In this document: piece by piece, positions 15,021 through 37,672 of the stretch
Position numbering within the stretch: the stretch's first letter is position 1
Layout: the number at the start of each line of letters is the position of its first letter
Source: Pseudovirgaria hyperparasitica
Lineage: Eukaryota
Assembly: GCA_010093815.1 (NCBI GenBank)
Contig: ML996590.1
Length of the DNA: 38,203 nt
Strand: one strand, 5' to 3'
The notes under the pieces: generated by a model
What the model saw: only the letters and a program-made list of their open reading frames with translations
Database searches by the model: none
What the model was told of the DNA's origin: nothing
Position numbers and translations under genes: made by a program

Positions 15021-15560
15021 GAAAGCTACCCTTAGTAACCTAGATTATTACCTATCTCTATATCTCTATTCTAAGTCTTATAAGACCTTAGTCGTTCTCT
15101 ACGCTTTATCTTAGATACTTACTAATATTTGCCGATCTAAGATTTATATAAGTGTTTTCCTAATAAACTAGATTTTATCTATCTTAACTTCTTATATAGG
15201 TAAGATTACCTAATTAGGCCTAGCGTATCACGTAATGTAATTAGATAAGCCCGTGTACTACCTATATTAAAATCTTTTCTTAGAAATATTCCTTTCTTTA
15301 AAAAACTTCTTAACTCTTTATAGAGTTTTTTAGATTATTAGGTATATTACCCGATTCTTATAGATATAGATTTATATAGATTTACTATAATTTAGTATGA
15401 TTTACGTAATTTACTAATTTTTATACCGTCCTTAGCTAGTAATAATATAGTTCGTAATAATCTGTATAAATTAGTAATAATTATAATATAGTTTCCTAAA
15501 ATCTTAACGCTCTAAAGTAATCGGCGCGGAAATAGATATCTTTAAATAATCCCTATCTTA
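15021..15560 (-). mobile_element. 3' internal region of Gypsy family B copy 2 (left flank of the Plavaka insertion)
   Basis: Lies between the PPT and the left TIR and has a RIP signature. No pol motif recognised. Confidence 0.55.
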
Positions 15561-15586
15561 CATTAGGAAAGATACAGCGCTCCCAA
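15561..15586 (+). repeat. Left terminal inverted repeat
   Basis: Reverse complement of 37647-37672 with one mismatch. Confidence 0.92.
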
Positions 15587-15694
15587 GTACTCCTAAGTAC
15601 TCCCTAAGTATTCTTTCATCCCATTATATCTATCGGGCGGACCTACTTACTATCTATCCTAACGGGACGGCTTTATATAATTTATACTAAGTAT

Positions 15695-15832
15695 TCCGTT
15701 TATACCAAACGTCCCGTTTATACCGAACGTCCCGTTTATACCGAACATACTAGTTATACTAAACGTCCCGTTTATACTAAACGCACTAGTTATACCGAAC
15801 GTCCCGTTTATACCGAACGTACCGTTTATACC
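15695..15832 (+). repeat. Left subterminal 18-bp tandem array (~7.7 copies, consensus CCCGTTTATACCGAACGT)
   Basis: Read directly from the sequence. Confidence 0.95.
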
Positions 15833-15912
15833 AACGGGATAATTAGTACTAGTTGTTCTCTTAATACTAATTAGCTTACTAGTACTACTTATTTACTATA
15901 TACTAATCACTC

Positions 15913-18119
15913 TCATAGAATAAATAGTATATAGTATTTTAGCTTCTCTATCTACTCTACCTACTCTATCTACTCTATATACTCTATCTATTTTAATAGA
16001 AGTCTCTTTTCTAAAGTAATATCTTTATCTAAAGTATCTCTATAACTCTATATATCTTATTATTCTAAATTATATCTTTAGTATATTTAATTATAGTCTT
16101 TAAATTTAATACTAGAAAGATAGTATATAATAGAGAGTAGAGGTTAAAAATTAATTAGACTAGGAACTTAAATTAAATGGTACTATTCTAAGCTCTCTCC
16201 GACTATATAGCTATAATAAAATATAGTAGACCTTCCTTTCTTCTGCCTTTAGGCGGTGTCCTTTATCTATTAAAAGGTGTCCTTATCTAGAACTACCTTT
16301 GATGACCTTTTCTCCCACTAGACACTTCCCTCTATATTTCTAGTTACTATTTTTATTCTCTCTTATATTATCTATTCGGCCTCGTGGTAGTCTATATAGT
16401 TCCCTAGCTATATACTAATATCCGACTTCTCTTAAAAGTGTATACTCTTTATATATAGGTTAAAGACCCGACTTAAACGTCCGCTACCATCTAACTTTAT
16501 TTTAATTTAAGTATTAGTCGGGGTAGATAGACTACTAGTTAAGGTAGCTATAAGTAGGGATAATAAGTTAGTAATAGACTCATTTATACTACACGTATAT
16601 ATACTATTATTTACCGTTCCCGCGGTTACTTAGAGCGGGTCTATACTTAATACCTAAGATGGTATAATCTTATCCGTAGCCACTACTAGTGGTATAGAAC
16701 TCTCACCTATATCTAATGGCGCATGAGATGATTCGAGGTACTTATCTAACTAGTTTAGAGTATCCGACTTATCCTTTTCATAGTAGTTAGTATCTATATA
16801 GCCTCTATAACTTTAGTATATACTTATATTACCCGATAGCTTAGACTCCTCGCTCTTATCTAAGTTATCTATATCTACTTTAGAGAAGTTATCTAGGTTA
16901 TCTTTATATGGGTTTATATATATAGTATCCGGGTCGATTAGTATTAGTACTATAAATACTAATACTATTAGCGATTTTTAAATATAGTCGATGCGGTAGG
17001 GCGCCTAGTTCGACTAAATTAGGCTTAGCGCTCGTTATTCCTCTATATAATTTAGCACGCGATTAGATAAAGGTATATATATATACCTAGTATTAGTAGA
17101 GAGCGTGTAAATCTATAGCGACTAAAGGACGAGTTCGGCGCCCGCCCGCTACTATATTCGTTAAGGGCATGCCTTATTATAATATATATAATAGTAATCG
17201 TAGATGGTGGGATCGGTCGGAATATACTACTATAGTACTCCTTTAATCTAAGGAATCTTAGGGACTATAGTAGAACTAACTTTAGAGCCTTAATTACTAC
17301 TAGCCCTACGAACATTTTCTAAGTTACGCTAGTATTATACTAATAATTAGTAACACGTCTAACATGACGTAAGTAATATATCTTTACTCCTATATATGCG
17401 TTATTACGTATTAGATTACTTATACTAGCTTTTCTCTTCTCGGCTATCTCCTAGTCCTAGTATTCGGATACTATCTATCTAACTCTAGAGAGGAGTTAGT
17501 AACGGAAGTCTATTATATCTTCCTTTACTAGCGCAATAACATGGGCGGGAGGTGTGTTTTATGAATTATAATTAAGGTAGTAGCTACTAAGATTAATATC
17601 TCCGGCGGCTATCTAGGCTAATTATACTAGTATCCTAAAACTATCTAGGCTACTATCTAGCCATATATTAAGGCGATCGAATACCGGTAGTAACCGGCCT
17701 AAAAACGTTATAGCGATTAAAATCTCTATTATCGTAAGGTACCGGTCTCATTTATAAGGCTAGAGACTATCTCTATAGGACCGCCTCTTTTTATAGATAG
17801 TTAGTTCCCTCTCTACTACTATTTCTCTACCTTCTTCTATTAAGCTAGATGGCTAATATAGTAGAGGAGAGGACGTAAGGCCGTTATATCCCTAGTTACT
17901 ATTATAGTAGGATATTACCGTAACGTCTAAGCTATATAGGGTGTTACTACTATATTCGCTACCGGTATACCTAGACTACTAGGTTATTAGTAGATAAATG
18001 AACGCGTCGAGATAAGCTAGATATATATATATACGTTTTTTATGTCGATGGCTGTCGTGTAAGTCTCTATTATTAATGCTAATACGTGTCTACGTTGTAT
18101 CGTATCTTCGTTTACCTAT
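15913..18119 (-). pseudogene. DUF6532-like protein with acidic low-complexity C-terminal part (RIP pseudogene, boundaries approximate)
   Basis: Minus strand ~17320->17100 de-RIPs to MFAGPAVIEALKLVL...GVFRPIPPSTIAIVCIMMRHALDEYSSGRAPNSSF, matching my recollection of the DUF6532 pattern F.PIP...IAL....I..AL.EW.TG....F. GT..CTAAT..TAG intron at ~17340-17387; D/E-rich stretch at ~16840-16910. Confidence 0.65.
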
Positions 18120-18558
18120 CCCGTTTAGTTTACTATGGTTACTAGATTGTCTTCTATTAGTATTACCGCTACGGTAGCTAGATAGTCCCTTAACCGTCTT
18201 CCGTGTTAGAGGTCCTATAGAGAAGATATATAAGAGATTAGTAGATATTTTCATTAGTAATGGGTCGGTAACCTACTAGGCGATAATATTAGATAGCGGG
18301 ATAATAACTAGCTAGTAGACACGATAAAGGTTTAGGTGTAGACTAATATAGTGTTTTTATAGACGCGTGATGCTTACGCGTTATTATTAATAATTTTAAG
18401 CGAGCGTATATAGGAATCAAGGGGCTAAGAGCCGGGTAGAAGTCGGGGGTTAGTGGGTATATATCGGGCTTTCAACGGGCTTACACCTAACTTCTTCCGG
18501 TATACGCCTAGAATATCCGCCGTATACCGTATTATTACTATCTACTAATAATTATACT

Positions 18559-21500
18559 ATGGTATTTTTTCTTTATAGTAACTATACCTCGAGATGCTAC
18601 GGGCCGTAGTCTTCTACTAATACTATATTAGAAAGATTAGTAGTATATACTATATAATCCGTAGGCACTATAACTCGGAACCGTATAGACGAGCACGGCT
18701 TGCTATATTACTATTATTATTATAACCATTAGGCCCGTAGCTACTACTATCGACCGGGTTACGGCGCGGCTTTAGTACTCGTAGTTATATTAGTCGATAG
18801 AACTCTTTAGTTCGCTCTATTAGTATTTAGCCGTCGAGTATTAATCAGAAGTCTAAGCCTATAGAATTAGGTACTTCTACTACTAATATTACCCTATGTA
18901 AAGATACTACTATTTTCCCTAATCCTGTTTCGGACCTGGAATCTATGGACGGCGTTACTAGTAGCTATGGTACCGATTTAGTATATTAGTCTAATATATA
19001 TAGTAGAAATACTATGTCTATGGCGACGAGGGCGTCTAGTACTATATATTTAACGAAAACGTTCGAAGAGGAGAGCGGTATATATATTATAGTAGACTAG
19101 AGTAGACGTGATAATCCGTCCGACGTAAGTATATATAGTCTAGGTTTATAGTAGTAACTAATTTAGTAGGCCTAATTCGGTTAATTCGATAGTAAGTTTA
19201 TAGAGCGCCTTATAATATAGACGAATCGGTTTAGTATTTCGAATATAGTATACGATAAATTAACTACTATCCTTAAATAGACTTCCGCTATACCCCCCGA
19301 CCTTTTTATACTAAAATCTAATGTCGTGCGTAAGTAGTTATTATACTACCCTAAAGGGATACTGCACGAAAGTTAGTAGCGTAGCTGTGATATATTTAGC
19401 ACTACTATAGTCGAATACTAGTATAGGGATCCGCTTACGTTAGTGGAATTCCTCCTTAGATACTAACTATTCGCTAGTAAGCTCGTGTTTAAGCCGGTAC
19501 GATAATTTACTAGTTTAGGCGACCGGGTATATAGTAAAGCCTATATAGTAGATGGTTAGTAGGATATATACGCTACTATTCCGGATGGTACCGTCGTCGT
19601 CCCTATTATTTTATCTTCGGATAAGATAAACCTTACTAACCATGGTAGTAATAGAGTAGTATAGCTAGTCTATCTATCTATTTATAATCTACCACTAAAC
19701 GTCCGCTTATCTAGGAGTCTACTATTATTTCTACTACTTACTCTATTACTAGTAGTTAAGCTAGAAACGGTAGCGAATCGCTTTATGTTCCATTAGGTTA
19801 TAAGTAAAGTTCTAGCCCGTATATCCGCCCATGATAGAGTCGTTAACTATACTAATTATTATATAGCGTTATAGGCTATATAGAGTACTAGAGTATTAGT
19901 ATTATGTGCCGATGGCGGCTTATGTAAGTGCTATCCGCGTTTAGCTTTATATATTATAGATTTTCCGGAGTAGGTGCTTATCACGGGTGTATCCCATTAG
20001 TATATATATCTAATATATATAGTCCCTAGTAACAGACGATAGTATCTACGAGAAGCTATTACTAGTATATAGGAGTTCCGTATATACTCGTCGTTATAGA
20101 AATAGGTTTACCGTGTACGTCGCGAGTTAATAACTAATGGCTATAGTAGCGAGTATACTAGTAGTAAGATAGATAATAGGACGAGTGTACCTAGTATCTT
20201 ATCGTTTTCGTCGATATCTTTCGCGCTAGTAGTATAGGGCTATTATATTCGCTAATCGGTTAAGAGTCGGTATTCTAGTAGGTGGATAGAGCCATTAGAT
20301 AATTTTGCCTAGTTACTTACTAGAGTTAATATATACCGCGCGGTCGCTCCGGATATTCTACATTAACTATATAAGGGTATATTATAACACACGTTCAATT
20401 GGATAGTCTTATATATTATTAATTAAGAGTGTACGGGACATAAGTTAAAGGGTATATTTACCGGTATACCCCCTATAGAACGAGTAAAGAAGGCGATCGA
20501 TAAGCGATTCGCGTCTATTAGGGTATTCGGTCGTTATAACCTACTTAAGTATATAACTTTAGTAATATAATAGACGGGGGCGATGTTTAAGCGTATACTA
20601 GTAGTGTTTATAGTCGCGTTTAAACCGCTCCTATATCATGATTAACACTTCCTAAGCGTAGTGCGGGCGGTTATTAATATATGTATATTAGCGGCGTACT
20701 ATACGCATAATATATAGATACTAGCATACTTAGAAGAGGCTATATTACGCTTAGATAACCTAAAATACTAGTTTATACTATATCGTGGAGATAAATCGGA
20801 GGATAATTATTTTAACTTTCCGAAGTTCTATACATTATCGCACCTAGTTAATACTATTAAACACCATAGTTCGTTATATCTAATATCGGTAGAGCTACTA
20901 GAGCGATCTTATATCGTAGTAAAGGAATTATATTAAGGTTTAAATAAGAGGGAGACGTTTCTATAGTAGATGCTAGTAGTAGACACACGCACGATAAATA
21001 CTAAAATCTCTAGTAGTATAGAGGTAGCGGCTAGTACTAGTATATTAGTAGCCCCTGGCCTAGAGTAGCTCGATAATATACGTAAGCTAGTCGGCTAGCG
21101 GCGTATTCTAAAGGAGCCACGCTAGAGTAAATATACACTCTACGTCTTATAGAGCCATAGACTATCTACGTCCTACTAGACTACCATTAGCGACCTCTAC
21201 GACGTGTATAGTAGTAGTTTTATATTACTTGATACGGTTATACCCTTTATATATAACTATCGTAATCGGCTTATTAGGGATAATATATTAAAAGGTGCGA
21301 ATGTTAAACATATTAAAAAGGACCCTTCGTAGGCACGGGTCCTTTCTATCTATATATATAAGACCATGTACGTGCTAATACGACTAGATAGAGATATATC
21401 TATAGAGGCCTTCGACCCGATTTAGGTAAGGTATGCCCGTAACTAGTAAAAGAGTAGTAAGGCTAGGGAGGATTATATAATAGTATAGGAGTTTAACGAG

Positions 21501-21920
21501 GGTAGTAACTATCTTAACGGGAAGCGGGTTAGTAAAGTCCGTATATTTCTAGAGGTATACGATATGGAGAGCATTAACGTAACTAGTAGTATGGCGGCGC
21601 GATTCCTAGGTACGTTAGTTAAACTACTTAATAACTCGGGTAGAGGCAATATTAATACTATTAGTGGCCTTATACTATTACGTATAGCGGGTTAAAGGTC
21701 TAGTAATAAGACTTATATAATGGATAGGTTCCGTGTCTACGAGCTAGAGCATGTCCTACGCCCTATATAGATTATATTATATTAGTTAGTTACGGATAGT
21801 TTATTCTAGTTAAATACGTATAGTAATTAGGGGATCTATAATAAGGTATATAACCTAGACTTCTAGGCTATGAATAGACGAAACGTGACCGTAGCGTTAA
21901 AACACGGGCGCGTGTCGTAA
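18559..21920 (+). pseudogene. Plavaka-family transposase (RIP pseudogene; start uncertain, 18559-18945)
   Basis: One frame from 18945 to stop 21918-21920 with de-RIPed motifs YRDP; RVYSEAHTADGWW..VVVPIILSSDKTNLT..G...AWPVYLSI.NLP (SDKT ~19617); CADG..RKCYPRLALYIADFPEQ..CP.C.VP (~19845-20025); APDILHQLYKG (~20346); HFNFPKFHALSH (~20808); LNTYSDW..YNEVYDPDF. These are the motif series of fungal Plavaka transposases (PF18759). Confidence 0.9.
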
Positions 21921-22366
21921 GTCTATCGCTATCTACTACCGCCTACCGTAGTATACCGGCATATACCGGTATATAGCGGAAGTTATAGTTTATATATAGT
22001 AGTACTTAATAGTCGTATCCTATACTAGGATATCTCTAAGGAATAATCGTGGTTTATTACGATCGGTTCTATAAAAGGCTTATATTTAATAACTATCTAT
22101 AATTTTAGCTAAGGAGTATCTAGGGATGCACCTCCTTATTACCTAATAATTACTAGCTAGTATAAAAACTCTACGCCTCTAAAAGGGGTATATAGAACTT
22201 AAAGGATCCTTATTCACGGGTAGAACTAGACGCGGATAGTATTAACCTAACATAGATAGATTATATATATTAATACCCTGAAATCCGAACTATGTCTCTA
22301 GGTCTACTAGACCTAGCTCACACCCGATTCTAATGTTTTCGTTATTCGCGTTTATGCCTCGTTGGA

Positions 22367-22500
22367 TACCGGGCATATAACGAGTCTATAGTTAAGTAAG
22401 TATTAGGTACGTAACGAGTCTATTAATAAATGAGTACCGGGTATGTAACGAGTCTATGTAAATAAGTGTAAATAAGTATATACTAGGTATATAACGCTCT
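22367..22500 (+). repeat. ~34-bp degenerate tandem repeat (3-4 copies, core GG(C/T)A(T/C)(A/G)TAACGAGTCTAT)
   Basis: taacgagtctat occurs three times at ~34-bp spacing, followed by a partial fourth copy. Confidence 0.8.
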
Positions 22501-22739
22501 TACCAGGGAAACGTCTTCCTTAAGTATCTCCCCCTTCTAATATTTCTCCTTCTCTTTCTTTATTCTTTCTCTAGCCTTATAAGTATAGTTAGACTTATAT
22601 CGCTATATTATTAATGTGTACGTTCTTATATAGACCGTTAGAAACTACGGTAACTAGATATATATTCTCGTGATAGATAAATATACCGCACTAATACGTC
22701 GTATTATTCGTGTTTAATATAAGGGTTTACTACTACGAT

Positions 22740-23400
22740 CATTCGTCGTTACGCTCGTCTATCTCTTCTTAACGATAGTACTAATTAATAACGACCTATT
22801 ATAGAGATAATAGTTAGCATTACGTACTTCTCTTAAATATTTATATATTAATATTATATAAGTACATGCTTCGCGGAGGTCCTCTATCCTTCCCTTAAGC
22901 TATCTAGACTATCCCCTAATCGCTAAAAACTCTTATATCTAACTATTTCTACTATTTATTCCTCGGTTCTACTCGTTAGGCTTCGAACGATAGCGAACTA
23001 TAACGGGTTAGCGGTTATCTATATTTCGCGTACGCCGAGTTAGCATGCCTGAATATAATAGATGATAGTGTATTTATAATAGTATATACTAGATCTTATA
23101 GTATTTCTCTTTGGCGGTAGATCCACGTAGTCGTAAAGACGGCCTACTATCCTATTATACCTATATACTACGCTACTCTTTTATTATATATAGACGGTAT
23201 TACCGGAGTAGGGCTATCGCCCGGTAAACTTAACGTTATATATAGAGTATTGTGTATTTAACGTCGTTATTTCACGTGCCCTATGTTAGTGCGGGATCGG
23301 ATGCCGGCCGTATATTTCCCCGCCTCTATTAAATTAACGAGTTATTACCGAAAACTATACGGACTACTCGCGTTAATGTAGCCGTAACGTACGTGTTATA
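22740..23400 (-). pseudogene. Possible small intron-containing orphan gene
   Basis: Minus strand has fungal branch/acceptor signals (CACTAACATAG ~23282-23292; GCTAACCCGTTATAG ~22998-23012) separating coding-like segments. No domain recognised. Confidence 0.3.
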
Positions 23401-23479
23401 CCTACGCCTATTATATAGTATATATATCTCGTCTCTCTATTACCCTAGTAATATATACTATTCCCTATTCCGTCTACCT

Positions 23480-24333
23480 ATAGCTACGTCCGGCTAGCCG
23501 CGAATAAATAGCCGAGTAGAAGCGAGTCTCGACCTACTTTATATATTTAGAGCGTCCGATAGGTAGAAACTTCGGGTATATATAGAAGAGTTAATTTAGA
23601 AGGAATTTACTAGCCTATTACTAAACCTACGTAGTAAGGAAGTAAAGGACCACTATATAAAACAAGAGCGTTGCCTATAGACGGTCGTAGATAAATATAT
23701 ATTTATTAACGGTAGTTATACTATTTCACGGGTAGATACCATATATTAACTTAATACTATATTCTTGGTATTTACACGTAACTAGCGGCGGTTGGCTAAA
23801 TACCATTATATACGTTAAAACGATACCCCGGGCTAGACAAGCCGTTATAATGTTATATATACCCTACGAACCCGCCTAATATATCTAGCTAACCTAGTTA
23901 TTTAACCGTCGGACCACTAGTATCTATATCTCCTAAGGTAGCCGTGCCGCCGTGTTATATATGTATACCTATAGTCCTTATCCGCGATTATACTCGGGTC
24001 ACCCTAGTACTAATAACGGCCATATAGAATGGCACGACGCCGTTAAATATTAAGGGTATAAAAATACGCGATATAGTAGGTCTTAGTATAAATAAACTAT
24101 TAGAATTTATTAGCTCGTCTATAGATATACTAGGGGATGTAGGCGGTTATAGGTATGGTCGTGTCTACCTAGAGTACCCGATCCTACCGAGCGAGTCGAG
24201 TAATATAATTCTTTATAAGGATAGTTTAGACTAGGTATTATAGTAGACTATTAAATAGGCACTAGGCTTAGGACTAGATCGGGTGGTTTTCCGCGTGGGC
24301 GATATAAATAGTATATTTAGAAGCCTACTATAA
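23480..24333 (+). pseudogene. Orphan cargo gene 1 (helical N-terminal domain, linker, alpha/beta C-terminal domain)
   Basis: Coding-like frames whose stops are RIP-type TAA/TAG: MATSGQPRMNSRAEASLDLLCIFGASDRQKLRVYMEELIQKEF... and ...GRVYLEYPILPSESSDMIL.EDSLDQ.L...LDRVVFRVGD. One frame change near 23850-23940. Confidence 0.5.
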
Positions 24334-24599
24334 CGTATTAACTATAATCTAACCATATAGAAACGTCGCGCTATAAGTATAGTAGCGGGATTCATCCGTC
24401 TAGCGCGCGTAGGTAAGCTCGAGATATATATACGCCGATAGATATCGGCATATATTAACATATTACGACTACTAAGTGGTATATACCGATATATACCGGC
24501 ATATCCGGTATATACTAGTATAATACCGTCGCTCTTCCGTGGACATAACACTATTTATATATCTTAGGTTTTCGGTTATCGGTTACGTATAGTATTATA

Positions 24600-25320
24600 T
24601 ACACGGCGGATACCTTACTAGATTTAGGTCTTTCGTCGATAGTATATAGGTACGCCCTAGTCTACTTAATATAGGTATAGTCGACGCTTTACCTACTTAA
24701 ACGATAGACGTTAATAATGACGCGACTAGTATATTTACCTATTATATTATTAGCTAGCTAACGTTATATTAGGAGAGTCGAGCGCCGCCGTCCCGCCTAC
24801 TCTACCCGTCGATGTTAACATACTAGCGATTATAACCTAATCGCCTTATAAATTAATATATAATACCGGTATACTCGAGAGTTTGAGCGAACGTATAAAA
24901 GTCTAATATTATATACTATTTAGGGCCGGGGAGGAAGCGCCTACCGGCGTAGTAGTTATTAAGGCGATAGTAGAAGTCTATATATAACTAGACATACTAA
25001 GTCCGCCTCCTTCTTATGTGGTCCTATCGCTAGATAATATTACCGGTTTTAATATTATGGGAGAGGAGTTTATAGATACGAACCTATGAATATTAGTATA
25101 ATATCGGCTCGATAGTACGTATTATAGTATAAGGTAAGTTATATTTAAGCGGTAGTTAGACACGTGCGCTAGTATACTAATAGATATATAGTATCTCTAC
25201 CATGAATAGAATAGGCAAGGCATGGCTAGTAATATCTTACTACCTAGAAGAGATAGTTACCATAGAATTTAGAAGATAGGCTCGGCGTCTATGGCGTTAG
25301 TGTGTCGGACGGTTGAACTT
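24600..25320 (+). pseudogene. Orphan cargo gene 2 with two apparent introns
   Basis: Acceptor GCTAACGTTATATTAG (~24756-24772) and intron GTAAGT...CTAAT...TATAG (~25134-25190) flank a coding-like exon (GEEAPTGVVVI.A..EV...DIPSPPPSYVVLS.DDITGF). Confidence 0.45.
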
Positions 25321-25758
25321 TCATATAATACTATTTACTTATACCTATATTCACCTAAGCCCCGATTCGATAGCCTTCTATAATATACTATATACTTGGT
25401 TAGCGAGCTACTAGACTCATATAATAGTAGTATACTACCCTACTTTATATACTACTTAAGCTACTATTACTTTAGCCTACGTTAATCTTAGCTTCCTTTA
25501 GTCGTCCCTATATTATAAAAGAAAACTTCTATAAACCTTTCCTCTACTTATCTTGGTTTTTAAACCTAAATCTTACCTTCTATACTTTATTCCGTGTTAA
25601 TTACGACTATATATAAACGCTACATCGAACTCGACTCTATTAACCCTTAAGGTCCATTCTATATAATAGTTAACAAGGTTATATTTATAGTTCATAATAT
25701 GGATTAAGAACTCGTTATATTCGGCGATGTTTAGGACTAGTCTACGCTCGACGTAATT

Positions 25759-26082
25759 AAGCCTTACGTTTAAGCCGAGTCTCACGTTTAAGTCGAGCCT
25801 TATATTTAAGTCGAGCCTTATACTTAAGTCGAGCCTTACGTTTAAGCTAAGCCTTATATTTAAGTTAAGCCTTACGCTTAAGCCGATCCTTACATTTAAG
25901 CCGAGCCTCACGCTTAAGCCGATCCTTACGTTTAAGCCGAGCCTTACGTTTAAGCCGATCCTTACGTTTAAGTCGAGCCTTACGTTTAAGCTGATCCTTA
26001 CGTTTAAGCCAATCCTTACGTTTAAGCTAAGCCTTACGTTTAAGCCGAGCCTTACGTTTAAGCTAAGCCTTACGCTTAAGTC
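25759..26082 (+). repeat. 18-bp coding tandem repeat x18 (de-RIPed GAG CCT CAC GTT CAA GCC = EPHVQA)
   Basis: 18 contiguous units with no spacers, in frame with the helicase gene. Confidence 0.95.
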
Positions 26083-29000
26083 GAAGCTTATAATATAACT
26101 ACCGTCTTAACCGATAATAAACCACTCGTCTTTAGTATACTTACTAGTAACTACTATTCTAACGACGAGTATAAACTCAAGAAGGTCCAAAGTAGTAAGG
26201 CTCCCGTTCCTACTTATACTACCTATTAGATCTCTCTTATATAGAGCGATCTATAGTTAACCTTTGGGAATATCTATGGTATTAGTAGAGAAATAGATGG
26301 ACTTAAGTAGGAATAAGCAAAAACTTAAGCCGAGCTTAAGCTAGTAGTATTTAAGACTCGTGGTAAAGGTCACGGCTTCGAAGAGTCGATTAGTTATATA
26401 TATAGATTCCTTGAATTCCCTAAGTACCGCTCTTAGATTAAGTTACGTACTCGCTTCTAATGGATTAACAAAGGGAAATTAGTATCCTTAATAAGCTTAC
26501 TCCGCTTTAATCGTACTAATATCCTTCTATTATCCGACTACCCTACGGTATAGATCTTTAAGGTTAAGTAAGTAGGCGACTTCATCGAGTATTTTTCTAA
26601 ACTTCCTAATCTTATTATAAGTGAAGCGGATAAAGCTAATATACTATATATTAACACCGGCCTCTACGAAGACCCTCGCGACTTTTAGATTATCGAACTT
26701 ATAGCTAGCGAGCTTCTTAGTATAGGTTTTACTATTCTATTATATATCGGACCCGATATAATATATAAACGAGTAAAGTAATTCTTCGAAGATCTAGTTG
26801 CTTATACTATAGTTCGTATCTTGCTACCGCTACGTAACCCTATGGATCTTACCAGCTTTAATAATAAGCTTAAACTAGAGAGCGATCTAATTAATTCATG
26901 GTATATAGGAGTTACTACTCTCTATATATAATACGGCATAATAAGTAGGCCGGATAGTTGGCCCTAGATCTCTATTCTCCACCGCGAGTCATTCGATAAG
27001 AAATTTAACTACCTAATATATATTACTATAAGTACCTTGTAAGACGAATAGGCGGATCTCCCATTATTCTAATTCTAAGACGTTACTATTAGGTATATCT
27101 AGCTCTTAGGTGTTACTCGGGCGCTCTTAGCTATCGTCTATCCTATTAATGCGAAAGGATTCTATCGCATAGAACTAGGTAGTCGTAGGTACCTTAAAGT
27201 GGATTTAAAGGATTATAATAACGATACGTACCGCTTTAAAGTCCTTTAATTTCGCCTAGGCGTTCTTCTATTCGAATACCTCGCTCTAAAAGTCTTTAAT
27301 AAGGTTAGGCGTCCTCCTAAAGTACCTAAGGTACCGATTATATTAATGGATGCGGTTACTAATATAACTCGAGCTCGTCCTAAATATTTTATTCGGACTA
27401 GCGACACTAGTTTAAGTACGATTAGGTCGTCTCTTACTACGCTTATAGGGTTTATAGACGTTCCGGCTTTAGTTAGCGTATAAACCTACGATAAGCTTAC
27501 TAAGTAATATATTAATACGTGCTAGAAACTAACCTACCACGCCGTATAAGCTTCTAGAGACGGCGGCGTAGACGACTACGCCGCTTAGGATACGTTTAAT
27601 ACGATGGTCCTTAATATTATCGTAGACTTAGTGTCTATGTCTCTAATATATAGGTCCCCTAACCCTAACGACGAGATTCTAGATTATAGTATAGAGCCTT
27701 AGAATACTCTCGTTACTCTTTCTAAATTATCTATATCCCTAGATAATAATAAGGACACGAATATAGAATATAGTCACGATGTTATTAGCGACGAAGGTTC
27801 TATTACTAGCCCCGTCGCCGATATACATACACTTCTAATATCGTCCAAAGTCCACTCTAGTATTCTATCCCCTTTGCCACCCTCTATATAGGATCTAATA
27901 CTCGGTAATAACTATCTAAATCTTTAACCCGTCGACTACAACCGCTACGTTAAAGATTATGAAAGATTCCACGATCTCTAGGATATTATACGTTCGGAAC
28001 TATCTCCCTAATAATAGTATATCTATATATAGGCGACGGACGTACTTAGGGCTTAGTTCCTACTTCACGGCTATAGAGGAGCTAGGAAGAGCTATTTATA
28101 GCTTCGTCTACTACTAGCTATACTTCTAATTAATAAAATAAACGGTGCTTCTATTATCGCTTATACTACTAAGGTAGTTATCCTATCTAGCGATGTAATA
28201 GCGCACCTCCCTACGCCAGGTTCCACCTAAACATATAGAATATATATATATGTTATTATCGGCCTAACTAACGAAACCTACGACGACGCTATAAGAAAAG
28301 CATATAAATATATAAGTAATATATTTACTTACTATAAGTCTCTAAAGATACCGGTTATTCTTCGAAGATACCCCGAAGCCGTTAATTAAGAGGTTTTCTT
28401 TACTATAGCTAGACTATCTCGTCGCGGCGACCCTCTTATTAGGCCAACCTAGAACGATGTAATAGGCGGTACTATCCTCGCGTAAGCCTAGGCCGACTAT
28501 AGTAAACGACTATCAGAATATAGCACGGATCCCCGTGCTCGTCTATGGGAACTATATACCGGTTACGTTACGCTCGAGGTCGTTAGACTCGTTAAATCTC
28601 GATACTAATATAAATAGATCTCTAAGAATTTCGAGAAAGAAACGGCTCGGCTATTACGCGCTATCTATAAACGTTACGCTTATAATAAGGACATGCCTAA
28701 GAAGGAGTATAATAGGATGAACGAGCTATACCTCGCTACCTAGGACCTAGTTACTATCTACGCCTAGATTTATATAGGGACCCTATATGTTATGAATATC
28801 GCTAAGGTAGTCTATAATATATATCCGATTTTAGTCGTGATGGAAGAGGCTACGTGTATCCTTAAAAGTAATACACTCGGGATTATCGTTAATTATACTA
28901 CTATAGAATAGTAACTAACATTTATTTACGTCGGCGACCTACGCTAGCTCGATACCTACTAGCGTAATAGTACTAATATATAGGCCGCGAACTAGAGGAT

Positions 29001-30081
29001 CTCCTTTATAAAGCGCTAGATATAATATAGTTTCCTAACTACTCGCCTTACTAAGTTAGAACGCTTAGTTCCTAGGATAATAAACGTTATATCGCTAATT
29101 ACTTACTCGGGCGAGCTAACGACCTCGCCCCGCATAATGAATAATATTAATATACTACTCGTAGAGACCGTTTAATAAATATTTAGAATCCGCGGCTATT
29201 AATACGTCGTATACGCTAACATTAACGGGGATCACGCGCACATAGTAAATAACTTAATATATAATATAGACTTATTACGTTTCACTTAGTAGATTATTAC
29301 TAAGCTCTTCTATTATAGCGTTATACTCGATCACGTACTCTATATTTCTATATACGCCGCCTAACGTAATCTGTTTAAAGGGATGGTTAGGAACTCGCTT
29401 CTAACTACACTTACCGCAGTAGATAAAGCTCGATTTAATGCCCTACCTAAGCCGGTATAGAAGCTTGTCTAATGGCGTTCATGGGACGGTTCTTAGAGTT
29501 ATAATAACGATATAGTCCTTATTAACCCGGTCTAAACTAATCGCTTTGGCTTCCTCTCGGAAGTAAACTATAACGTTATTACTATTACGCGCGCTAAATA
29601 GATAATAGTTATTATTACTAACTTCGTATCTCTTAAGAGGTAGAAAGTCCTAGACGGCGTACTTGGCGAGATATAGAATAAGTACTCTAAGATTCATGCA
29701 ATATACACGTGCACGACCCCCGACCTAGATAGCCTCCCTCTACTCTCTAACATACCTAATCTCTAATATAGTCGCCCTATACTTAGTGTTAGAGAGAGGG
29801 GAGAATAAAGTAATTAATAAACTACCGATAGTACTAAGCCCTATAAGCCGCTGGTCTACCGTAAATATAACGTCGAAGGATATAAGTCTATTAAGTATCT
29901 AAGAGGGTCGACGCTTACATGTAATAACTATTAGGACATCGGCCATAAAGCTAATGTTTACTCTAAACCCAAGACGCTTACGGGTACGTTTTACTATAAT
30001 TATAGGACTACCGGTTATACTTAGTGTTATTATCCTAGCCGCACTAAATTACTAGCACGTATAAATAGTAATAATCCAGTT

Positions 30082-30165
30082 AATACTACTAGAGCTAATA
30101 CTACTAGAGCTAATACCACTAGAACTAATACTACTAGAACTAATACTACTAGAGCTAATACTACT
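30082..30165 (+). repeat. 15-bp coding tandem repeat (~5.5 copies, AATACTACTAGAGCT; de-RIPed about DATGA)
   Basis: Read directly; lies in the helicase C-terminal tail. Confidence 0.85.
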
Positions 30166-31180: not shown

Positions 31181-32477
31181 ATATTAAATCCGATTCTATA
31201 ACAAAGTAACCGTCCGAATATAGTAATTACTATAGTACTACTTCGCATCTTAAGCCTAGATATATAAGTAAAGCGTGAAGCTATGGAGGCGCGTGTAAGG
31301 TAGCTATATATAGAAGTATATACGGCTACTCTACTCGTAGACCATAGACGTTAAACTAAGAACGAGCTTAGCGTAAAAAGAGCACGTGAGATTATTAATA
31401 AGGTAGCGGGCGAATTCCTAGTAGTATAGGAAAGAGTAGTAGAGTATATAGAGATGAAGGCGCTATACTATATCTACGACTAGGTACGCACTATAGTATA
31501 GAAAACCGTATATTATAGAAAAACTATCTCTAAGTGTAAGAAGAGGCGTGTAATTATAGCTCTATATCCTATGACCTTATAATCCCCGCCTATCACGACC
31601 TTATAACCTCTATCTATCGCGACCTTATAACCCCCGTCTATCACGACCTTATAGCTCTCGTATACCACGACCTTATAGTCTATACTCGTAGCGGTCCCAT
31701 AGCCTACTAACGTATATACTATAAGAAAAATTAAATTCATGATTAGATTCGACGATAACGCATTCCTTAAAATACTAGTACCTACGTCTAACTAGTGGAA
31801 AGACTATAGCGACGCTTCGTGTATTAATTTAGTAGTATTTATACGGCGAATTAGGGTCTAATACATAACGAAGACTAGGAGGGTACTTAACTAGAGCCGT
31901 ACTACCATGCATTCTATCGTGCTAGTAGTTAAGTATATAATAAGTAAAACGGAACTAGAGGTAGATATTAGATGGCTCCTATAGTTAGTAATTAAATATA
32001 TCCTAGAATATAGTAATAGTATAATACTCCTCGGCCTTAGATAGAATATAGATAGTATACCTAAAGTAAAACGAAATATAAACCAGCGACTAACACATGA
32101 TAGTATAGACGGCTATATATAGATTACGCTTGAATAAATCCGCCCCTCCGTCCCTAATACTACACTTGCTACGATTAGTATAATAATAGTAATAGAAAGC
32201 TACCGTCTACGATGGTAGAGATACCTACGGAGATGGTATTATAGGTAGTAGATAGCATTACCTAAACGACTTAACCCTTCCTCTAGCGATACTATATATA
32301 CTACTATCGGCACCCGGGAAGTCGCGAGACTAATCTATAAGCTCTAAAGATAGTAACTTCGAAAGCCTTAAAAGTACCTTAGATATAGAGGATATGGATA
32401 TCGCTTTTAAAGACTAATAGGATAATGAAAAGGGTGCTAGAGGTAGTGAGAGTGGCGTGCGTACTTGGCTAAGGTAA
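31181..32477 (+). pseudogene. Orphan cargo gene 3 (helical N-terminal domain, TTLQPPSI repeat linker, C-terminal domain, acidic tail)
   Basis: Coding-like frames MSNPI..NRPNAVIAMVLLRI....KREAMEARVRQL... and KIEFMIGFDDNAFLEIPVPTS.WKDY.... Branch/acceptor GACTAACACATGATAG at ~32088-32103; one frame change before the repeat. Confidence 0.5.
31571..31680 (+). repeat. 24-bp tandem repeat (~4.5 copies, core CTATCACGACCTTATAACC)
   Basis: gaccttata recurs five times at 24-bp spacing. Confidence 0.9.
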
Positions 32478-32818
32478 TGCGATCCGACGTAAGACGGCTT
32501 CTATCTACTATATATCGGTATATGCCCGATTCTACTAGCTATATAACTATGGCGTATATATTCGGTTAAGACGTTATAATACTAGTATAAGCCGGCGTCT
32601 ACCTAGTTCACGTCGGGATACGCCCGGTTCTACTAGCTATATTATTACTACGACTATAATCGTATAAGATCTACTCTAATAATTAAATATTTACTTATAT
32701 ACTTTACTTCCTCCGTACTTATTAAAATTACGTTATAATTACTAAACGCGGTAACTTAACTTCTACCGCCTAAATCTAGTTTTTATATCTTATTACCATT
32801 AACGCCGTCTTACTATCT

Positions 32819-35800
32819 ATGGCCTAAGTCGTATATAGGAATAGATAGGTATAATAAGAGTTACGACTATTCTAGTTTAACTACCGGCTATAGAATAGCT
32901 AACTATAATACGCATATACGACGTACGGAGGCCTTAAGCGTTAGCGCCCTTCTACCTTATATCTAGTACCTCTAAGGCCTATACCTAATACCCGAAATAA
33001 GTTATAATATATATAGGGCTACCATTATTAAGATAGTAAGTAAAGAAGTAGTAATAGAGCTTGAAACTAGTGGCATAGACACTACTATACTCTATAGGAT
33101 AGTTAAGGAAACCGTTACTAGAGAATTTAATTGGCATATCGCGGCTATAAATAGTAAGTTAGTACCGACGGTTACGACCATAGATATAATAGAGACTAAA
33201 CTAGATATAGATACTATAGGCATAGGTACGTAGATATAGTTACCGCTAGAACATAAGGAGAAAGATAATATAGAAGATACTGAAATGGAAGACGACGTAG
33301 CTAGTATGCTTAGACACATATATATACACACGGTCCTAGATACTAACATTAGAGTAGTATCGAATACAGGCGCGGTTATGACTACCGACATAGATAATCT
33401 ACCTATAAATATCGTCGTGCCTAGCGAAGCTTATCTACGCGTAAACATACTAGCTATAGAGATATAGTTATAGTTACCGCTAGAATATACGGAGAAAGAG
33501 AACGTGGAAGATACTAAAATGGAAGACGACGCAGCTAGTATACTTAGACACATATATATATATATATATGGTCCTAGATACTAATATTAGAGTAGTATCG
33601 AAGATAGGTACGGCTATAACTACCGACATAGATAATCTATCTATGAATGTCGTCGTGTCTAGCGAAGCTCATCTACGCGTAAACACACTAGCTATAGAGA
33701 TATAGTTATAGTTACCGTCGGAATATACGGAGAAAGAGAACGTGGAAGATACTAAAATAGAAGACGACGTAGCTAGTATACTTAGATATATATATATATA
33801 TATGGTTCTAGATACTAACATTAGAGTAGTATCGAAGATAGGTGCGCCTATAATTACTAATATAGATAATCTACCTACGAATATCGTCGTGTCTAGCGAA
33901 GCTCATCTACGCGTAAATACACTAGCTATAGAGATATAGTTATAGTTACCGTCGGAACATACAGAGAAAGAGAACGTAGAAGATACTAAAATAGAAGACG
34001 ACGTAGCTAGTATACTTAGATATATATATATATATATATAGTCCTAGATACTAATATTAGAGTAGTGTCGAAGATAGATGCGCCTATGATTACCGATATA
34101 GACAATTCCCCTACGAATGCCGTTGTGCCTCTAGATACCGGCGAGACTTATCTATAGCTGCTAGAAATAAAGAGGACACTCTCGGATAATATAGTAAACC
34201 TAGTCGATTCTCCGAAACGCCTAAAACTAGAATATATTATACTACTAGATATCGACTAGTAGACACGTAAAAACCAGGAACTATTCGGGTTAGTAGATAA
34301 TTTATATAGTAGATATATATCGGATAGTATATTAGCGAATAGCCTTAACTTTAAAATCCTTTCTATAGACGATAACTCTAACGGAGATGAAGTAAAGCTA
34401 GATATAGAGGACTTAATTCCGGTAGATAACGATGTTAGTACGAAACTATAGGAAGCGTAAGTTATACTAAGAAGTAAGTAGGAATATATACTACCATACT
34501 AATGTACCTATAGAATATTCGCCGTTAATAACTCTAATAAAGTAGTCTAAGCTATCTCTTATTATACGGAAGAGATGCGGTTACTTACTATAAGTATATT
34601 TAGGCTTGCGCTAGACGACCTAATAAAGGAGTTCGGCCATATACCTACTCTATATCTAGCCTTTAGTATAAGTGGGTTATATAGGCTATAGGCCGGCTAG
34701 TTACTCACGGTAGTTACTATGTTTAAGTAGCGGGCGGGTCTATGGAAGTACTAGATCTTAGTAGATAGCCTAGGGCTAGAGAAGATAATCGTGCTTATAA
34801 CGTTCATCCGCCTCGCGTTTTATTAGGACTTTCTACGCGATAACATAGAACTTAATCTAGGAAATTACCTATAACCGACTTAAGACTCGGGCATGGATAG
34901 GAAGTGCCTAATATAATCTCTGTATCCGATTAAATATCCGTGTAGCTAGACCAATGATTTTGTCTATGTGCCCCGCCTTTAAGGACTATTTATACTATAC
35001 TACCTAAGGTCCCTTCTAATAGCGCATTAGCCGTAGCGCTTTAAATAGATATATAACGATATAGATAGCATGTTTACCGATTAAATTAATAAACGGAACC
35101 CGATAAAGATAATAGTGCGGCTAGCGTACTCGAAAACCCTTACTAACGCCTCTAGTATCCGATAATTCTCGTATATAGACCGATAATACTTAGCTAAGAG
35201 ATGCCTACACCCCGAATGGGAACATAGCGTCGATATTAGTAATACTACTAAATTCAAGACCGACGAGGAGTATATTATTAGAGCATGGTCGATTCCCGTT
35301 AATAGAACCGCTACTACTAAATTTCCGTCGCGATACGCGAAGAACCATATAATCTATAGTACCGTCTAGAGTATGGAACCCTAATATCTTAAATCTTTTA
35401 AGGGACGCGTGGTTATAAGAGTAAAGAGAGCGAAATAATTTAGTACTAAAAATACTTAAACTCGCGAAGTAGTATTCCTTAGTATATTAATAGTAGACGA
35501 GTTCTATTCCGTAAAGAACCCCGATATAAAACAGTATAAATATACGATATATAATGCCCTTATATTTAGTATATAGGTTAGTATAACGCCCCTCTCGAAT
35601 AGTCTAGTAGATATTCTAGCGGCTATCGAGGTAGGTGCTCCGGATAAGTTACCTAACTATATTAACGATAATACTACTAAAAGGGTATTCGAGAGCCTAT
35701 AGAATAAAACTATAAGGAAGATTATTATAACGTGGTCGAATAAACTCCTTAGTTTAATAAAAGGTAAGCTGGTAGATACGATGGCCGCGATAGTCCGTAG

Positions 35801-36990
35801 GGCATTAGAAACCATAGAAGGTAAGCGTATACTACGTATGGTAGCCGATTAGTATTTACTATTCGTTCTATAACGGGAACTACTAACTAAATGGTTTAAC
35901 GGAGAGGCATGTCTATCTACGATATCAAAGCTAGTAGTAGAGTTTATATCCGTCCCGGCTATAGAACTAGAGAAGATAATTATACGGTTATACGAGAATA
36001 GAGGTAGATAGTTTAATAATCTATAGTCTAACGGAACGCCGCGGGACTCGTAGGTATAATCTACCGCCTAGAGTAAATCGAAAGGGGGTACCGGGTCCGG
36101 GCTTAACGTATACTACTATTAGGCTAGGCTAGCTACTATATATATACTACTTATATACCTTACTAATAAAAAGATAGAAGACGAGTAAATTAATATCACG
36201 CTTACGCGTCGGAGGGATAGTAATAATAGTATACCGAGTAAGATAATTACTAATCCCGTACGCGAAGCGCTTCTATAGCTAGATAAGGCTATGCGAAAGG
36301 AGATAGTATTACTAGCTAATAAACACGCTTCGAAGGTAAACTAGATCCGTAACTTTATTAATAATAACGTTTATAATGAAAGTACTAGACGCGCGCGACG
36401 AACATCCGCCGACCGCCTAGAGAAAATCGTACTTATATGTGCCGTACCGGCAAGCTTAATATTCCTATACTTAGTAAGTGTTTATACTATCTACTAGTAA
36501 CGTAATTTACTAATATATATAGGTACTATATCCATATACACAAGCGAAAATGTTAGTATATTTACTAGCCGGCCTAAGTACGTCCGAATTAAATAAGATA
36601 TATAGATTATTTAGGTCGACTAAGTCGGATTCTCTATATATTCTACTAGTATTAGCTTCGTAGGTCTGCGAAGGACAAGACCTAATAGTCGCCGGTTTTA
36701 TAGTATTAGTAGACTAATACTTACGTAAGGAGACGTGGCCGTAGGCAAGTATAAGATATTATCGCCATGGATAATATCGGCCTATAGTATATATATATAC
36801 TTTGATTTTAGACTATTTAGAGGTCGAGGCTAGACTCGCCGCGTTAGGTAAGGTAATCGAAAGCACGAGGACATAAGCCTTAGACCTAGAAAAAGGAGAT
36901 ATAGCTACGGTAGAGATAGCTATACCTAATATACTAGTAATAGGCGTATACTTTAATCCTATAGAGATATAGTAGCATAGAAGTAAGTAA
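32819..36990 (+). pseudogene. SNF2-family (SWI2/SNF2) ATPase with long acidic repetitive N-terminus (RIP pseudogene; ends approximate)
   Basis: Motif I ILADSPGLGKT (34755-34787); Ia L.CPRSL (~34995); II VDEFHSVKNP.T (35493-35530); III SATPLSNS..DI (~35580); IV EKIVL (~36420); V EGQDLT.A (~36670); VI QA..R.HRHGQ (36742-36774). GTAAGT..CTAAT..AG introns at 34457-34513 and 36474-36522 have lengths that reconcile the reading frames. Confidence 0.88.
33236..34130 (+). repeat. 234-bp (78-aa) coding tandem repeat, ~3.8 copies
   Basis: Units start atagttaccg at 33236, 33470, 33708 and 33942. The ORF-track peptides at 33285 and 33742 are fragments of two units. Confidence 0.95.
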
Positions 36991-37116
36991 GGTAGTCGGT
37001 TAATTAGCTTCTAAGAGACTAGATAGCATGGTAGTATAAATACGAACCGCTGTTTACTCGTGATTACATGTCTATATATATCTATACGTGAAGAGAAATA
37101 AGATATTTATTCTATA

Positions 37117-37436
37117 CCGTTATATAGTAGGACGTTACTATATATACCGGCATATAACGGAATGTTCCGACATGCGCCGGTATATTATAGGATATTCCTA
37201 GATACTCAAAGTATAGTCATAGTATAAAGTAGTATTACTATTATATGCCGGCATATAGTAGGACGTTACTATATATGCCGGTATATAACGGGATCATGTT
37301 CTAATATACTATACGCCGCCGGTATATTATAGAATATTCCTAGATACTTAAAGTATAGTCGTAATATAAAGTAGTATCGCTATACTATGCCGGTATTTAG
37401 TAGGACGTTACTATATATGCCGGTATATAACGGGAT
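37117..37436 (+). repeat. Right subterminal ~131-142-bp tandem repeat (2.3 copies)
   Basis: tagtaggacgttactatatat(a/g)ccgg(c/t)atataacgg at ~37125, ~37256 and ~37398. Confidence 0.9.
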
Positions 37437-37460
37437 TAAACGTTTTCTTAACGTTCGATA

Positions 37461-37640
37461 GAACGATTCTAAAAGAACCGGGACGGCTCTAGGAGAACTA
37501 GAACGACTCCGGGAGGACTAGGACGACTCTAGGAGGATTAGAATAACTCTAGAAGTACCGGGACGACTCTAGGAGGATTAGGACAACTCTAGAAGTACCG
37601 GGACCCATTTAGGATAACTTTAGAAGTACCGGGAGACCTA
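37461..37640 (+). repeat. Right subterminal 20-bp array (~8 copies, GGACGACTCTAGGAGGACTA / ..CTAGAAGTACCG)
   Basis: Read directly; abuts the right TIR. Confidence 0.88.
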
Positions 37641-37646
37641 GAAGCA

Positions 37647-37672
37647 TTGGGAGCGCCGTATCTTTCCTAATG
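37647..37672 (-). repeat. Right terminal inverted repeat
   Basis: Reverse complement of 15561-15586 with one mismatch. Confidence 0.92.

What the first reader, a model, noticed from the sequence alone, without database searches (positions are those of the whole stretch)
15561..37672. Complete 22.1-kb cargo-carrying Plavaka transposon: a giant TIR element distinct from Starships
Seen: 26-bp TIRs (25/26 match) 22 kb apart, TA on both outer flanks, subterminal arrays, one transposase and about 6-7 additional genes between the TIRs. Known: the transposase motif series is that of the fungal Plavaka family, described mainly at protein level and often linked to TET/JBP genes in basidiomycetes; the well-known giant fungal cargo elements (Starships) use a tyrosine recombinase. 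Inference: this is a large cut-and-paste element with defined ends that moves an RNA helicase, a SNF2 ATPase, a DUF6532 gene and orphans as one unit. I am not aware of a description of Plavaka elements with this boundary structure and gene set, but I cannot search the literature here.
Basis: partly seen in the sequence, partly recalled or inferred. Interest (0 to 1): 0.92.

Follow-up and report, generated by a model that had tools for sequence, protein, structure and literature searches.

The report
RIP-killed 22-kb Plavaka DNA transposon
A 22-kb cut-and-paste transposon of the Plavaka family, carrying helicase-type passenger genes, lies mutated beyond function in a repeat-rich stretch of a fungal genome; it is real and large for a fungus, but its family and end structure are already in print.

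Summary
The structure is real. Window 15561-37672 (22,112 bp) is bounded by 26-nt inverted repeats (25/26) with TA on both outer flanks and repeat arrays just inside both ends. It holds one Plavaka transposase (Pfam PF18759, E 1.8e-32).

Two other genes are supported: a DUF6532 gene (PF20149, E 5.8e-8, minus strand) and an SF1 AAA_11/AAA_12-type helicase (HMMER E 9.7e-9). The SNF2 ATPase rests only on motifs and a chance-level PDB match. The "orphans" could not be verified. Every frame is full of stop codons, so this copy is dead.

RIP index and GC are uniform across the element and differ from both flanks. Contigs of the source sample show many transition-diverged copies covering all 18 kb that were laid. 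So the unit, passengers included, was repeated in that genome.

The termini CATTA..TAATG plus a 2-bp duplication match published PlavakaB ends (CATCA..TGATG, 2-3 bp TSD) after RIP-type changes. Giant Plavaka elements with accessory genes (red algae) and 16-31 kb fungal KDZ elements are already described.

What may be new is this accessory gene set, the 22-kb size for a fungal Plavaka, and the strongly RIP-mutated setting. Moderate interest. The Gypsy target was not verified: the left flank holds Helitron remnants and a very high-copy repeat.

The parts
15559..15560 (.). TA flanking dinucleotide, left (putative 2-bp target-site duplication)
   Evidence: It also extends the inverted repeat, so TSD and TIR extension cannot be told apart from this copy alone.
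15561..15586 (+). left terminal inverted repeat, begins CATTAGG
15580..15990 (.). left subterminal repeat arrays (10 bp x3, 18 bp x8.6 at 15681-15834, 9 bp x5 at 15946-15990)
17115..17552 (-). DUF6532 domain of a pseudogene
   Evidence: PF20149, E 5.8e-8, 33.3 bits (cut-off 24), profile 43-178 of 194. 7 stops in 146 codons.
18903..22200 (+). Plavaka transposase pseudogene. The Pfam-matched core is 19401-19997.
   Evidence: PF18759, E 1.8e-32, profile 41-237 of 325. 64 stops in 1099 codons.
22401..25750 (.). unassigned interior ('orphan' space). No family found.
   Evidence: no credible Pfam hit in the frames scanned
25760..26084 (.). 18-bp x 18 tandem array, in the same reading frame as the helicase just downstream
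26101..29750 (+). SF1 (AAA_11/AAA_12, Upf1/ZNFX1-like) helicase pseudogene. The HMMER-matched core is 28807-29658.
   Evidence: 65 stops in 1216 codons.
33231..34106 (.). 234-bp x 3.7 tandem repeat inside the long + frame 32403-36900
   Evidence: A contig variant skips one unit.
34755..35648 (+). SNF2-like motifs I (34755-34787) and II-III (35478-35648). Weakly supported.
   Evidence: the only 3 PDB hits are all the SNF2 ATPase CHD1L, but at E 0.56. No Pfam or homolog hit.
37108..37604 (.). right subterminal repeat arrays (71/142 bp and 20/40 bp units)
37647..37672 (-). right terminal inverted repeat
37673..37674 (.). TA flanking dinucleotide, right

Best explanation
Window 15561-37672 is one structurally whole but genetically dead copy of a 22.1-kb DDE cut-and-paste transposon. 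It belongs to the Plavaka lineage (CMC/CACTA-related), with ends of the PlavakaB type.

When the element was alive, its transposase would have bound the 26-nt TIRs and the repeated subterminal motifs. It would have excised the whole segment and reinserted it with a 2-bp staggered cut, here giving TA. This step is inferred from the family.

The same unit carried a DUF6532 gene, a large SF1 helicase and probably an SNF2-type ATPase as accessory genes. The family multiplied to many copies in this genome. Repeat-induced point mutation (RIP) then destroyed every reading frame.

This copy landed in DNA that was already a more heavily RIP-mutated repeat graveyard.

What the accessory genes did is inferred, not shown. 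The most likely role is help with chromatin access or escape from silencing. That would parallel the TET/JBP genes of basidiomycete Plavaka and the PAG genes of red-algal Plavaka.
For: Ends:
- 25/26 TIR, unique in the window.
- Termini CATTA..TAATG equal the published PlavakaB CATCA..TGATG with one C>T and one G>A change. A 2-bp flank repeat fits the published 2-3 bp TSD. Plavaka-11_AB starts CATCAG.
- Subterminal arrays at both ends share inverted cores.

Transposase: PF18759, E 1.8e-32.

Unit integrity:
- (CpA+TpG)/(ApC+GpT) is 0.21-0.30 and GC is 0.33-0.38 in all eleven full 2-kb bins of the element (the last, 112-bp bin reads 0.42 and 0.48). The flanks give 0.02-0.09 and 0.22-0.29.
- RIP acts on duplicated DNA (recalled knowledge), so even mutation across 22 kb implies that the whole unit was duplicated.

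Multi-copy family (contigs of X1 and X2, which are one sample):
- 19,556 contigs of X1 were laid on 13561-33560 at 80% likeness or more. 13,090 of them are below 99%.
- Differing places are almost all transitions: X1 has C>T 442, G>A 430, T>C 320, A>G 276, and no transversion type exceeds 6.
- Summed depth is flat over 15562-32903 (X1 17.9k-30k), against 295k in the adjoining flank bin and 1.7k further out.
- 12-23 distinct contigs cover the listed variant sites: 17851, 19323 and 21593 (transposase), 23252, 26622 (helicase), 30462 and 31295.
- One X1 contig joins other sequence directly to base 15561.

Accessory genes: DUF6532. Helicase: 8 hits at E 1e-3 or better, best 9.7e-9, and 7 of the 8 are AAA_11/AAA_12 helicases.
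Against: - No second full copy, no empty site and no right-end junction of another copy was seen. No genome is held, and the laid stretch stopped at 33560.
- TA is common in this AT-rich DNA and extends the palindrome, so the TSD is weak evidence on its own.
- The single joint contig has only 29 letters on its shorter side.
- Summed contig depth is not a copy number, as the tool itself warns.
- SNF2 got no Pfam hit even at E up to 10 and no homolog hit. Its PDB match (E 0.56) is no better than a plainly chance hit for another query (E 0.79).
- The transposase was not placed in a tree with PlavakaA/B, and its C(2)C / H(3-4)H motifs were not examined.
- The Pfam scan of the interior did not cover all six frames everywhere.
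Confidence: 0.8

Rival explanations
1. Composite or macro-transposon. Two separate short Plavaka-derived ends, or two elements in opposite orientation, happen to bracket 22 kb. The helicase, SNF2-like and DUF6532 sequences are host or foreign DNA caught between them, not regular passengers.
For: Only one copy is seen directly. Accessory genes of this kind were not seen in the passages read from 9 of the 20 papers that hold the word Plavaka.
Against: The RIP index and GC are uniform through the whole interior and differ from both flanks. Depth is flat, and 12-23 contig variants occur at sites spread from 17.8 to 31.3 kb, so all parts are repeated to a similar degree. The flank dinucleotides match.
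Confidence: 0.07
2. The interior holds nested insertions of other mobile elements (for example a helicase-bearing element). In that case the true Plavaka unit is much shorter, and the 22 kb reflects later insertions in this copy or its sub-lineage.
For: Fungal TET+ Plavaka-11_AB is only 9,895 bp. About 3.3 kb (22.4-25.75 kb) and other stretches have no assignable content. Two weak 'opposite strand' joints link flank-type repeat sequence to interior positions 26923 and 32601 in other contigs.
Against: No reverse transcriptase, integrase, second transposase or Helitron domain was found in the interior frames scanned. The same method did find Helitron domains in the flank. There is no step in depth or RIP index inside the element.
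Confidence: 0.08
3. It is an EnSpm/CACTA-proper element whose transposase merely cross-hits the Plavaka profile, as reported for some rust EnSpm families.
For: PMC12730594 notes rust families with similarity to Plavaka proteins that were classed as EnSpm. The subterminal repeat arrays are CACTA-like.
Against: Those EnSpm families have CAC..GTG termini and 3-bp TSDs. Here the termini are CAT(T/C)A..T(A/G)ATG, and the 3-bp flanks differ (TTA against TAT) while the 2-bp flanks match. PF18759 was the only family reported for that frame, at E 1.8e-32.
Confidence: 0.05

Closest known systems
PlavakaB DNA transposons of Agaricomycotina (e.g. Plavaka-11_AB; Kojima 2025, PMC12730594)
   Same: PF18759-type transposase. 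Termini CATCA..TGATG, here with RIP-type C>T and G>A changes. 2-3 bp TSD. Carries non-transposase genes.
   Different: The described TET+ family is 9.9 kb and carries a TET/JBP dioxygenase. This element is 22.1 kb and carries DUF6532, an SF1 helicase and an SNF2-like sequence; no TET/JBP hit appeared in the frames scanned. It sits in strongly RIP-mutated DNA, whereas that paper reports no hypermutation in Agaricomycotina.
Giant Plavaka elements of red algae (Bostrychia, Chondrus; bioRxiv 10.1101/2025.02.11.637652)
   Same: 17-19 kb Plavaka with several accessory genes of chromatin or DNA-modifying type, and internal tandem arrays. The families are high in copy number and mostly degenerate.
   Different: Accessory genes PAG1-3 (N6-methylase+SET, ParB-like+2OG oxygenase) are not the set seen here. 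The host kingdom is different.
Truffle Plavaka (PMC12581995) and Marasmius Plavaka (PMC8290104)
   Same: Fungal Plavaka with 2-bp TSDs and CAT-type TIR starts (CATAC in truffle). The truffle case shows Plavaka in Ascomycota.
   Different: The passages read mention no accessory gene set or 22-kb size. Their supplementary figures were not seen.
KDZ (Kyakuja) TET+ transposons
   Same: Giant fungal DDE transposons, with consensus lengths of 9-31 kb in Table S1, that carry an epigenetic-modifier gene.
   Different: The transposase family is unrelated, and so are the termini and the cargo.
Starship elements
   Same: Large cargo-carrying mobile elements of Pezizomycotina.
   Different: Starships move by a tyrosine recombinase 'captain' and reach up to about 700 kb with many host-benefit genes (search-listing abstracts). 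This element has a DDE transposase, long TIRs with subterminal arrays and a handful of nucleic-acid-enzyme genes.

Membership tests
Plavaka (CMC/CMCT clade DNA transposon) | Transposase matching Pfam PF18759. Hiltunen 2021 used this domain to define autonomous Plavaka. | tested here: met
   E 1.8e-32, 113.3 bits against a cut-off of 26.3, read through stops as X
Plavaka (PlavakaB) | Termini 5'-CATCA..TGATG-3' | tested here: inconclusive
   The observed termini are CATTA..TAATG. They equal the motif only if one C>T and one G>A RIP-type change are assumed. No un-mutated copy was available.
Plavaka (PlavakaB) | 2- or 3-bp target-site duplication | tested here: met
   TA on both sides, while the 3-bp flanks differ. 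Caveat: TA is frequent here and is palindromic with the TIR.
Plavaka / CMCT | [quoted passage not shown] | not tested
   The frame is too mutated to read by eye (64 stops in 1099 codons).
Plavaka | Placement with PlavakaA/B in a transposase phylogeny | not testable with these tools
   No Plavaka reference proteins could be retrieved. The word-based search failed and the metagenome scan found none.
Starship | Tyrosine-recombinase captain gene (DUF3435) near one end | tested here: not met
   No such Pfam hit in the frames scanned. Not all six frames of all parts were scanned.
SNF2 ATPase | Match to the SNF2 N-terminal and Helicase_C profiles | tested here: not met
   No Pfam hit at E up to 10 or up to 1. 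There are only motif I/II/III look-alikes and a CHD1L match at E 0.56.
SF1 AAA_11/AAA_12 (Upf1-like) helicase | Significant similarity to family members, with helicase motifs in order | tested here: met
   Direct Pfam on the pseudogene gave nothing. HMMER against 1.84 billion representatives gave 8 hits, best E 9.7e-9. 7 of the 8 carry AAA_12 above cut-off, and 6 of those also AAA_11 above cut-off. Motifs II, III and VI were seen by eye in order.
DUF6532 | Match to PF20149 above the gathering score | tested here: met
   33.3 bits against 24, E 5.8e-8

The most novel reading that the evidence does not exclude
An ascomycete branch of Plavaka carries a conserved accessory module: an SF1 Upf1/ZNFX1-like helicase, an SNF2-type remodeller and DUF6532. 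This module would serve chromatin access or anti-silencing. If so, Plavaka is a lineage that has captured different epigenetic or nucleic-acid-remodelling toolkits three separate times (TET/JBP in mushrooms, PAG1-3 in red algae, helicase/SNF2 here). It would also be a second, DDE-based class of multi-gene giant transposon in Pezizomycotina beside Starships.
Probability: 0.3. Interest if true: 0.65.

Novelty: new variant of a known kind. Interest (0 to 1): 0.42.

Why it matters
If the accessory set is a regular part of this family, Plavaka transposons repeatedly pick up enzymes that act on chromatin or nucleic acids. It would also mean that ascomycetes harbour large multi-gene DDE transposons besides the tyrosine-recombinase Starships.

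The case also shows a usable trick. Evenness of RIP damage, together with contig-variant counts, can stand in for a copy census when no assembly is at hand.

This copy is dead, so it gives no function directly. Less mutated relatives in the same species label (X3/X4) would be the place to look.

Tried and rejected
- Whole genome: none held.
- Earlier scan notes: none.
- Pfam on long six-frame read-throughs: too large to print. Shorter references with stops as X were used instead.
- Word-based homolog search on the SNF2-like region and on the transposase: no hit. This tool suits RIP-mutated queries poorly.
- Pfam on the SNF2-like region in all three + frames, at E up to 10 or up to 1: nothing.
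- PDB sequence search with the helicase: only a chance hit to an ATP-synthase subunit at E 0.79.
- ESM Atlas: does not take a read-through translation. Not pursued.
- Self-comparison of the window: no second copy of the element or of its immediate flanks, so no in-window empty site.
- Flank continuity test. A PIF1 domain stops at 14702, well before the insertion, and nothing was found in the 529-bp right flank, so the test was uninformative.
- Metagenome scans with a RIP-tolerant TIR pattern and with the transposase: no relatives.
- No RNA holder listed among the sequencing runs.
- X3/X4 leave most of the element without cover, which shows nothing.
- The joint 28323>33193 (shorter side 21 letters) and the two 'opposite strands' joints (sides 27-32) are too short to interpret.
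- Kojima's Data S1 sequences and Figure S2 were not visible as text. Only Table S1, with cells cut at 400 characters, could be read.
Full report
OBSERVATION

The left end reads ...tccctatctTA|CATTAGGAAAGATACAGCGCTCCCAAG. The right end reads ...TTGGGAGCGCCGTATCTTTCCTAATG|TAtacg.

The repeat finder reports arms 15559-15586 / 37647-37674, 28 nt and 96% complementary, 22,060 nt apart. Without the outer TA that is 25/26, and the one mismatch is an A/G transition. The 26-mer has no other site with up to 6 mismatches on either strand of the window.

Only 3 of 100 first-order Markov simulations of the window held any 26-nt inverted pair with at most 1 mismatch. The element is 22,112 bp long (15561-37672).

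Tandem arrays lie just inside both ends:
- 18 bp x 8.6 at 15681-15834
- 20/40 bp at 37459-37604
- 71/142 bp at 37108-37436

The two sides share short cores in inverted orientation: CGTCCCG, TCCCGTT, TATACCG and AACGTCC. This is the layout expected of transposase-binding subterminal repeats in CACTA-like elements (recalled knowledge).

STATE OF THE DNA

The window is AT-rich (GC 0.21-0.38). It holds a single open frame of 120 aa or more, and that frame is the antisense of an 18-bp tandem repeat.

TpA/ApT is 1.65 throughout. (CpA+TpG)/(ApC+GpT) is 0.25 in the element and 0.02-0.09 in the flanks. This is the classical CpA>TpA RIP signature of Pezizomycotina (recalled knowledge).

Every candidate gene therefore had to be read through stops as X. 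The supported frames carry 43-65 stops each.

GENES

- Transposase. Frame 18903-22400 (+) hits PF18759 (Plavaka) at E 1.8e-32, 113 bits, profile 41-237 of 325. The matched DNA is 19401-19997.
- DUF6532. The minus strand at 17115-17552 hits PF20149 at E 5.8e-8, 33.3 bits against a cut-off of 24.
- Helicase. Frame 26101-29750 (+) gave no Pfam hit, but motif II, III and VI look-alikes appear in order. HMMER of 27301-29850 against 1.84 billion representatives gave 8 hits at E 1e-3 or better, the best at 9.7e-9 with 26% identity. Seven of the 8 are AAA_11/AAA_12 SF1 helicases. The best hit also has a sub-threshold ZNFX1 domain. The eighth is a WD40 repeat protein and is taken as spurious. Whether the helicase acted on RNA or DNA cannot be said.
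- SNF2. The long + frame 32403-36900 has motif I, II and III look-alikes at 34755-34787 and 35478-35648. The only 3 PDB sequences matched at E up to 10 are all the SNF2 ATPase CHD1L, aligned on motifs II-III, but at E 0.56. An equally weak and plainly chance hit turned up for the helicase query. Pfam found nothing in any + frame, and neither did the homolog search. I call SNF2 plausible, not shown.
- Rest of the interior. No further family appeared in the frames scanned. Not all six frames of all parts were scanned, so '6-7 additional genes' is unverified.

ONE UNIT OR A MOSAIC?

Two lines of evidence favour one unit.

First, the RIP index (0.21-0.30) and GC (0.33-0.38) are even in all eleven full 2-kb bins of the element; only the last, 112-bp bin departs (0.42, 0.48). 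Both values step at the two ends to the more heavily mutated flanks. RIP hits duplicated DNA, so the whole 22 kb was duplicated. The copy also entered DNA that was already mutated.

Second, Logan contigs of two runs of one sample (X1 and X2, probably the window's own source) were laid on 13561-33560 at 80% likeness or more:
- X1 gave 19,556 pieces: 6,466 at 99% or more, 5,743 at 95-99%, 5,829 at 90-95% and 1,518 below 90%.
- The differing places are almost all transitions.
- Summed depth is flat across 15562-32903 (X1 17.9k-30k, X2 6.7k-13k). The neighbouring flank bin gives 295k and the bin further out 1.7k.
- At the listed variant sites inside DUF6532's neighbourhood, the transposase, the helicase and the unassigned parts, 12-23 distinct contigs are present.

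The tool warns that summed depth is not a copy number, and I use it only for evenness. One X1 contig joins other sequence directly to base 15561 (shorter side 29 letters, one ambiguous letter). That is a hint that another copy starts at the same base with a flank other than TA. The right end was outside the laid stretch.

Two runs of another sample with the same species label (X3, X4) hold only a few low-depth pieces, about 88-90% alike. Their differences are mostly A>G and T>C, which means they are less mutated relatives.

COMPARISON WITH PRINT

'Plavaka' occurs in 20 papers of the library. I read passages from 9 of them.

- Kojima 2025 (PMC12730594; passages and part of Table S1) reconstructs full Plavaka transposons. 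PlavakaA has TGT..ACA termini and 2-bp TSDs. PlavakaB has CATCA..TGATG termini and 2-3 bp TSDs. Plavaka-11_AB is 9,895 bp, starts CATCAG and carries a TET/JBP gene. Kyakuja consensi run to 31 kb.
- The ends found here equal the PlavakaB motif after one C>T and one G>A change.
- The Chinese white truffle paper (PMC12581995, one passage) reports ascomycete Plavaka with 2-bp TSDs and a CATAC TIR motif.
- Hiltunen 2021 (PMC8290104, passages) characterised Plavaka TIRs. Its supplementary figure was not seen.
- The Bostrychia preprint (passages) describes 17.4-19.1 kb Plavaka with three accessory genes and tandem arrays, and cites giant Plavaka in Chondrus.
- DUF6532 occurs in one paper. There it is listed beside the KDZ, Plavaka and CxC2 domains as co-enriched in certain fungi. 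This fits a transposon-linked gene.
- None of the passages read mentions a helicase or SNF2 gene in a Plavaka element (searches).
- Iyer et al. 2014 was not read. It is known here only through citations.

SURROUNDINGS

The claimed Gypsy target could not be checked. The left flank holds a Helitron_like_N domain at 12345-12848 (E 1.2e-12) and the first 98 of 223 positions of a PIF1 domain at 14412-14702 (E 2.8e-7). A very high-copy repeat follows, up to the insertion point. The 529-bp right flank gave nothing.

VERDICT

This is a real, structurally whole, RIP-killed 22.1-kb Plavaka (PlavakaB-like) transposon from a multi-copy family. It carries DUF6532 and an SF1 helicase and perhaps an SNF2 ATPase.

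The family, its ends and the idea of giant accessory-gene-bearing Plavaka are already known. This accessory set, the size for a fungus and the RIP setting appear to be new. Interest is moderate.

Noticed in passing
window 12345-12848 and 14412-14702 (+): RIP-mutated Helitron remnants in the left flank: Helitron_like_N (E 1.2e-12) and the first 98 of 223 profile positions of a PIF1 helicase (E 2.8e-7). The PIF1 match breaks off near 14.7 kb, where contigs of X3/X4 also diverge (loose ends at 14730 and 14776).
   Followed up: partly
window 14228-15561: The DNA that abuts the left end is a very high-copy repeat. Its summed contig depth is 134k-295k, against about 20k for the element and 1.7k further left. 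14782-15007 is 79% like 737-962.
   Followed up: partly
window 2703-5453 and 5464-8191: A 2.7-kb direct tandem duplication, 89% identical, in the most AT-rich part (GC about 0.21). No Pfam family was found in the one frame scanned.
   Followed up: partly
window 25760-26084: An 18-bp x 18 tandem array lies in the same frame as the helicase and directly upstream of it. It reads as a hexapeptide repeat with a stop in each unit. Its antisense is the only open frame of 120 aa or more in the window. A contig variant differs in unit number (goes back 90).
   Followed up: no
window 33231-34106: A 234-bp x 3.7 tandem repeat lies inside the long + frame upstream of the SNF2-like motifs. One X2 contig skips exactly one unit, so the copy number varies among family members.
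   Followed up: no
runs X3/X4 on window 16188-16330, 17883-18195, 21214-21480, 22327-22561, 30510-30604, 31451-31642: Another sample with the same species label holds low-depth pieces about 88-90% like the element. Their differences are mostly A>G and T>C, so they are less RIP-mutated relatives that could give cleaner gene sequences.
   Followed up: no
window 16080-16181: One contig in each of X1 and X2 skips 100 bp here (shorter side 60-61 letters). This is an indel variant among family copies in the left subterminal region.
   Followed up: no
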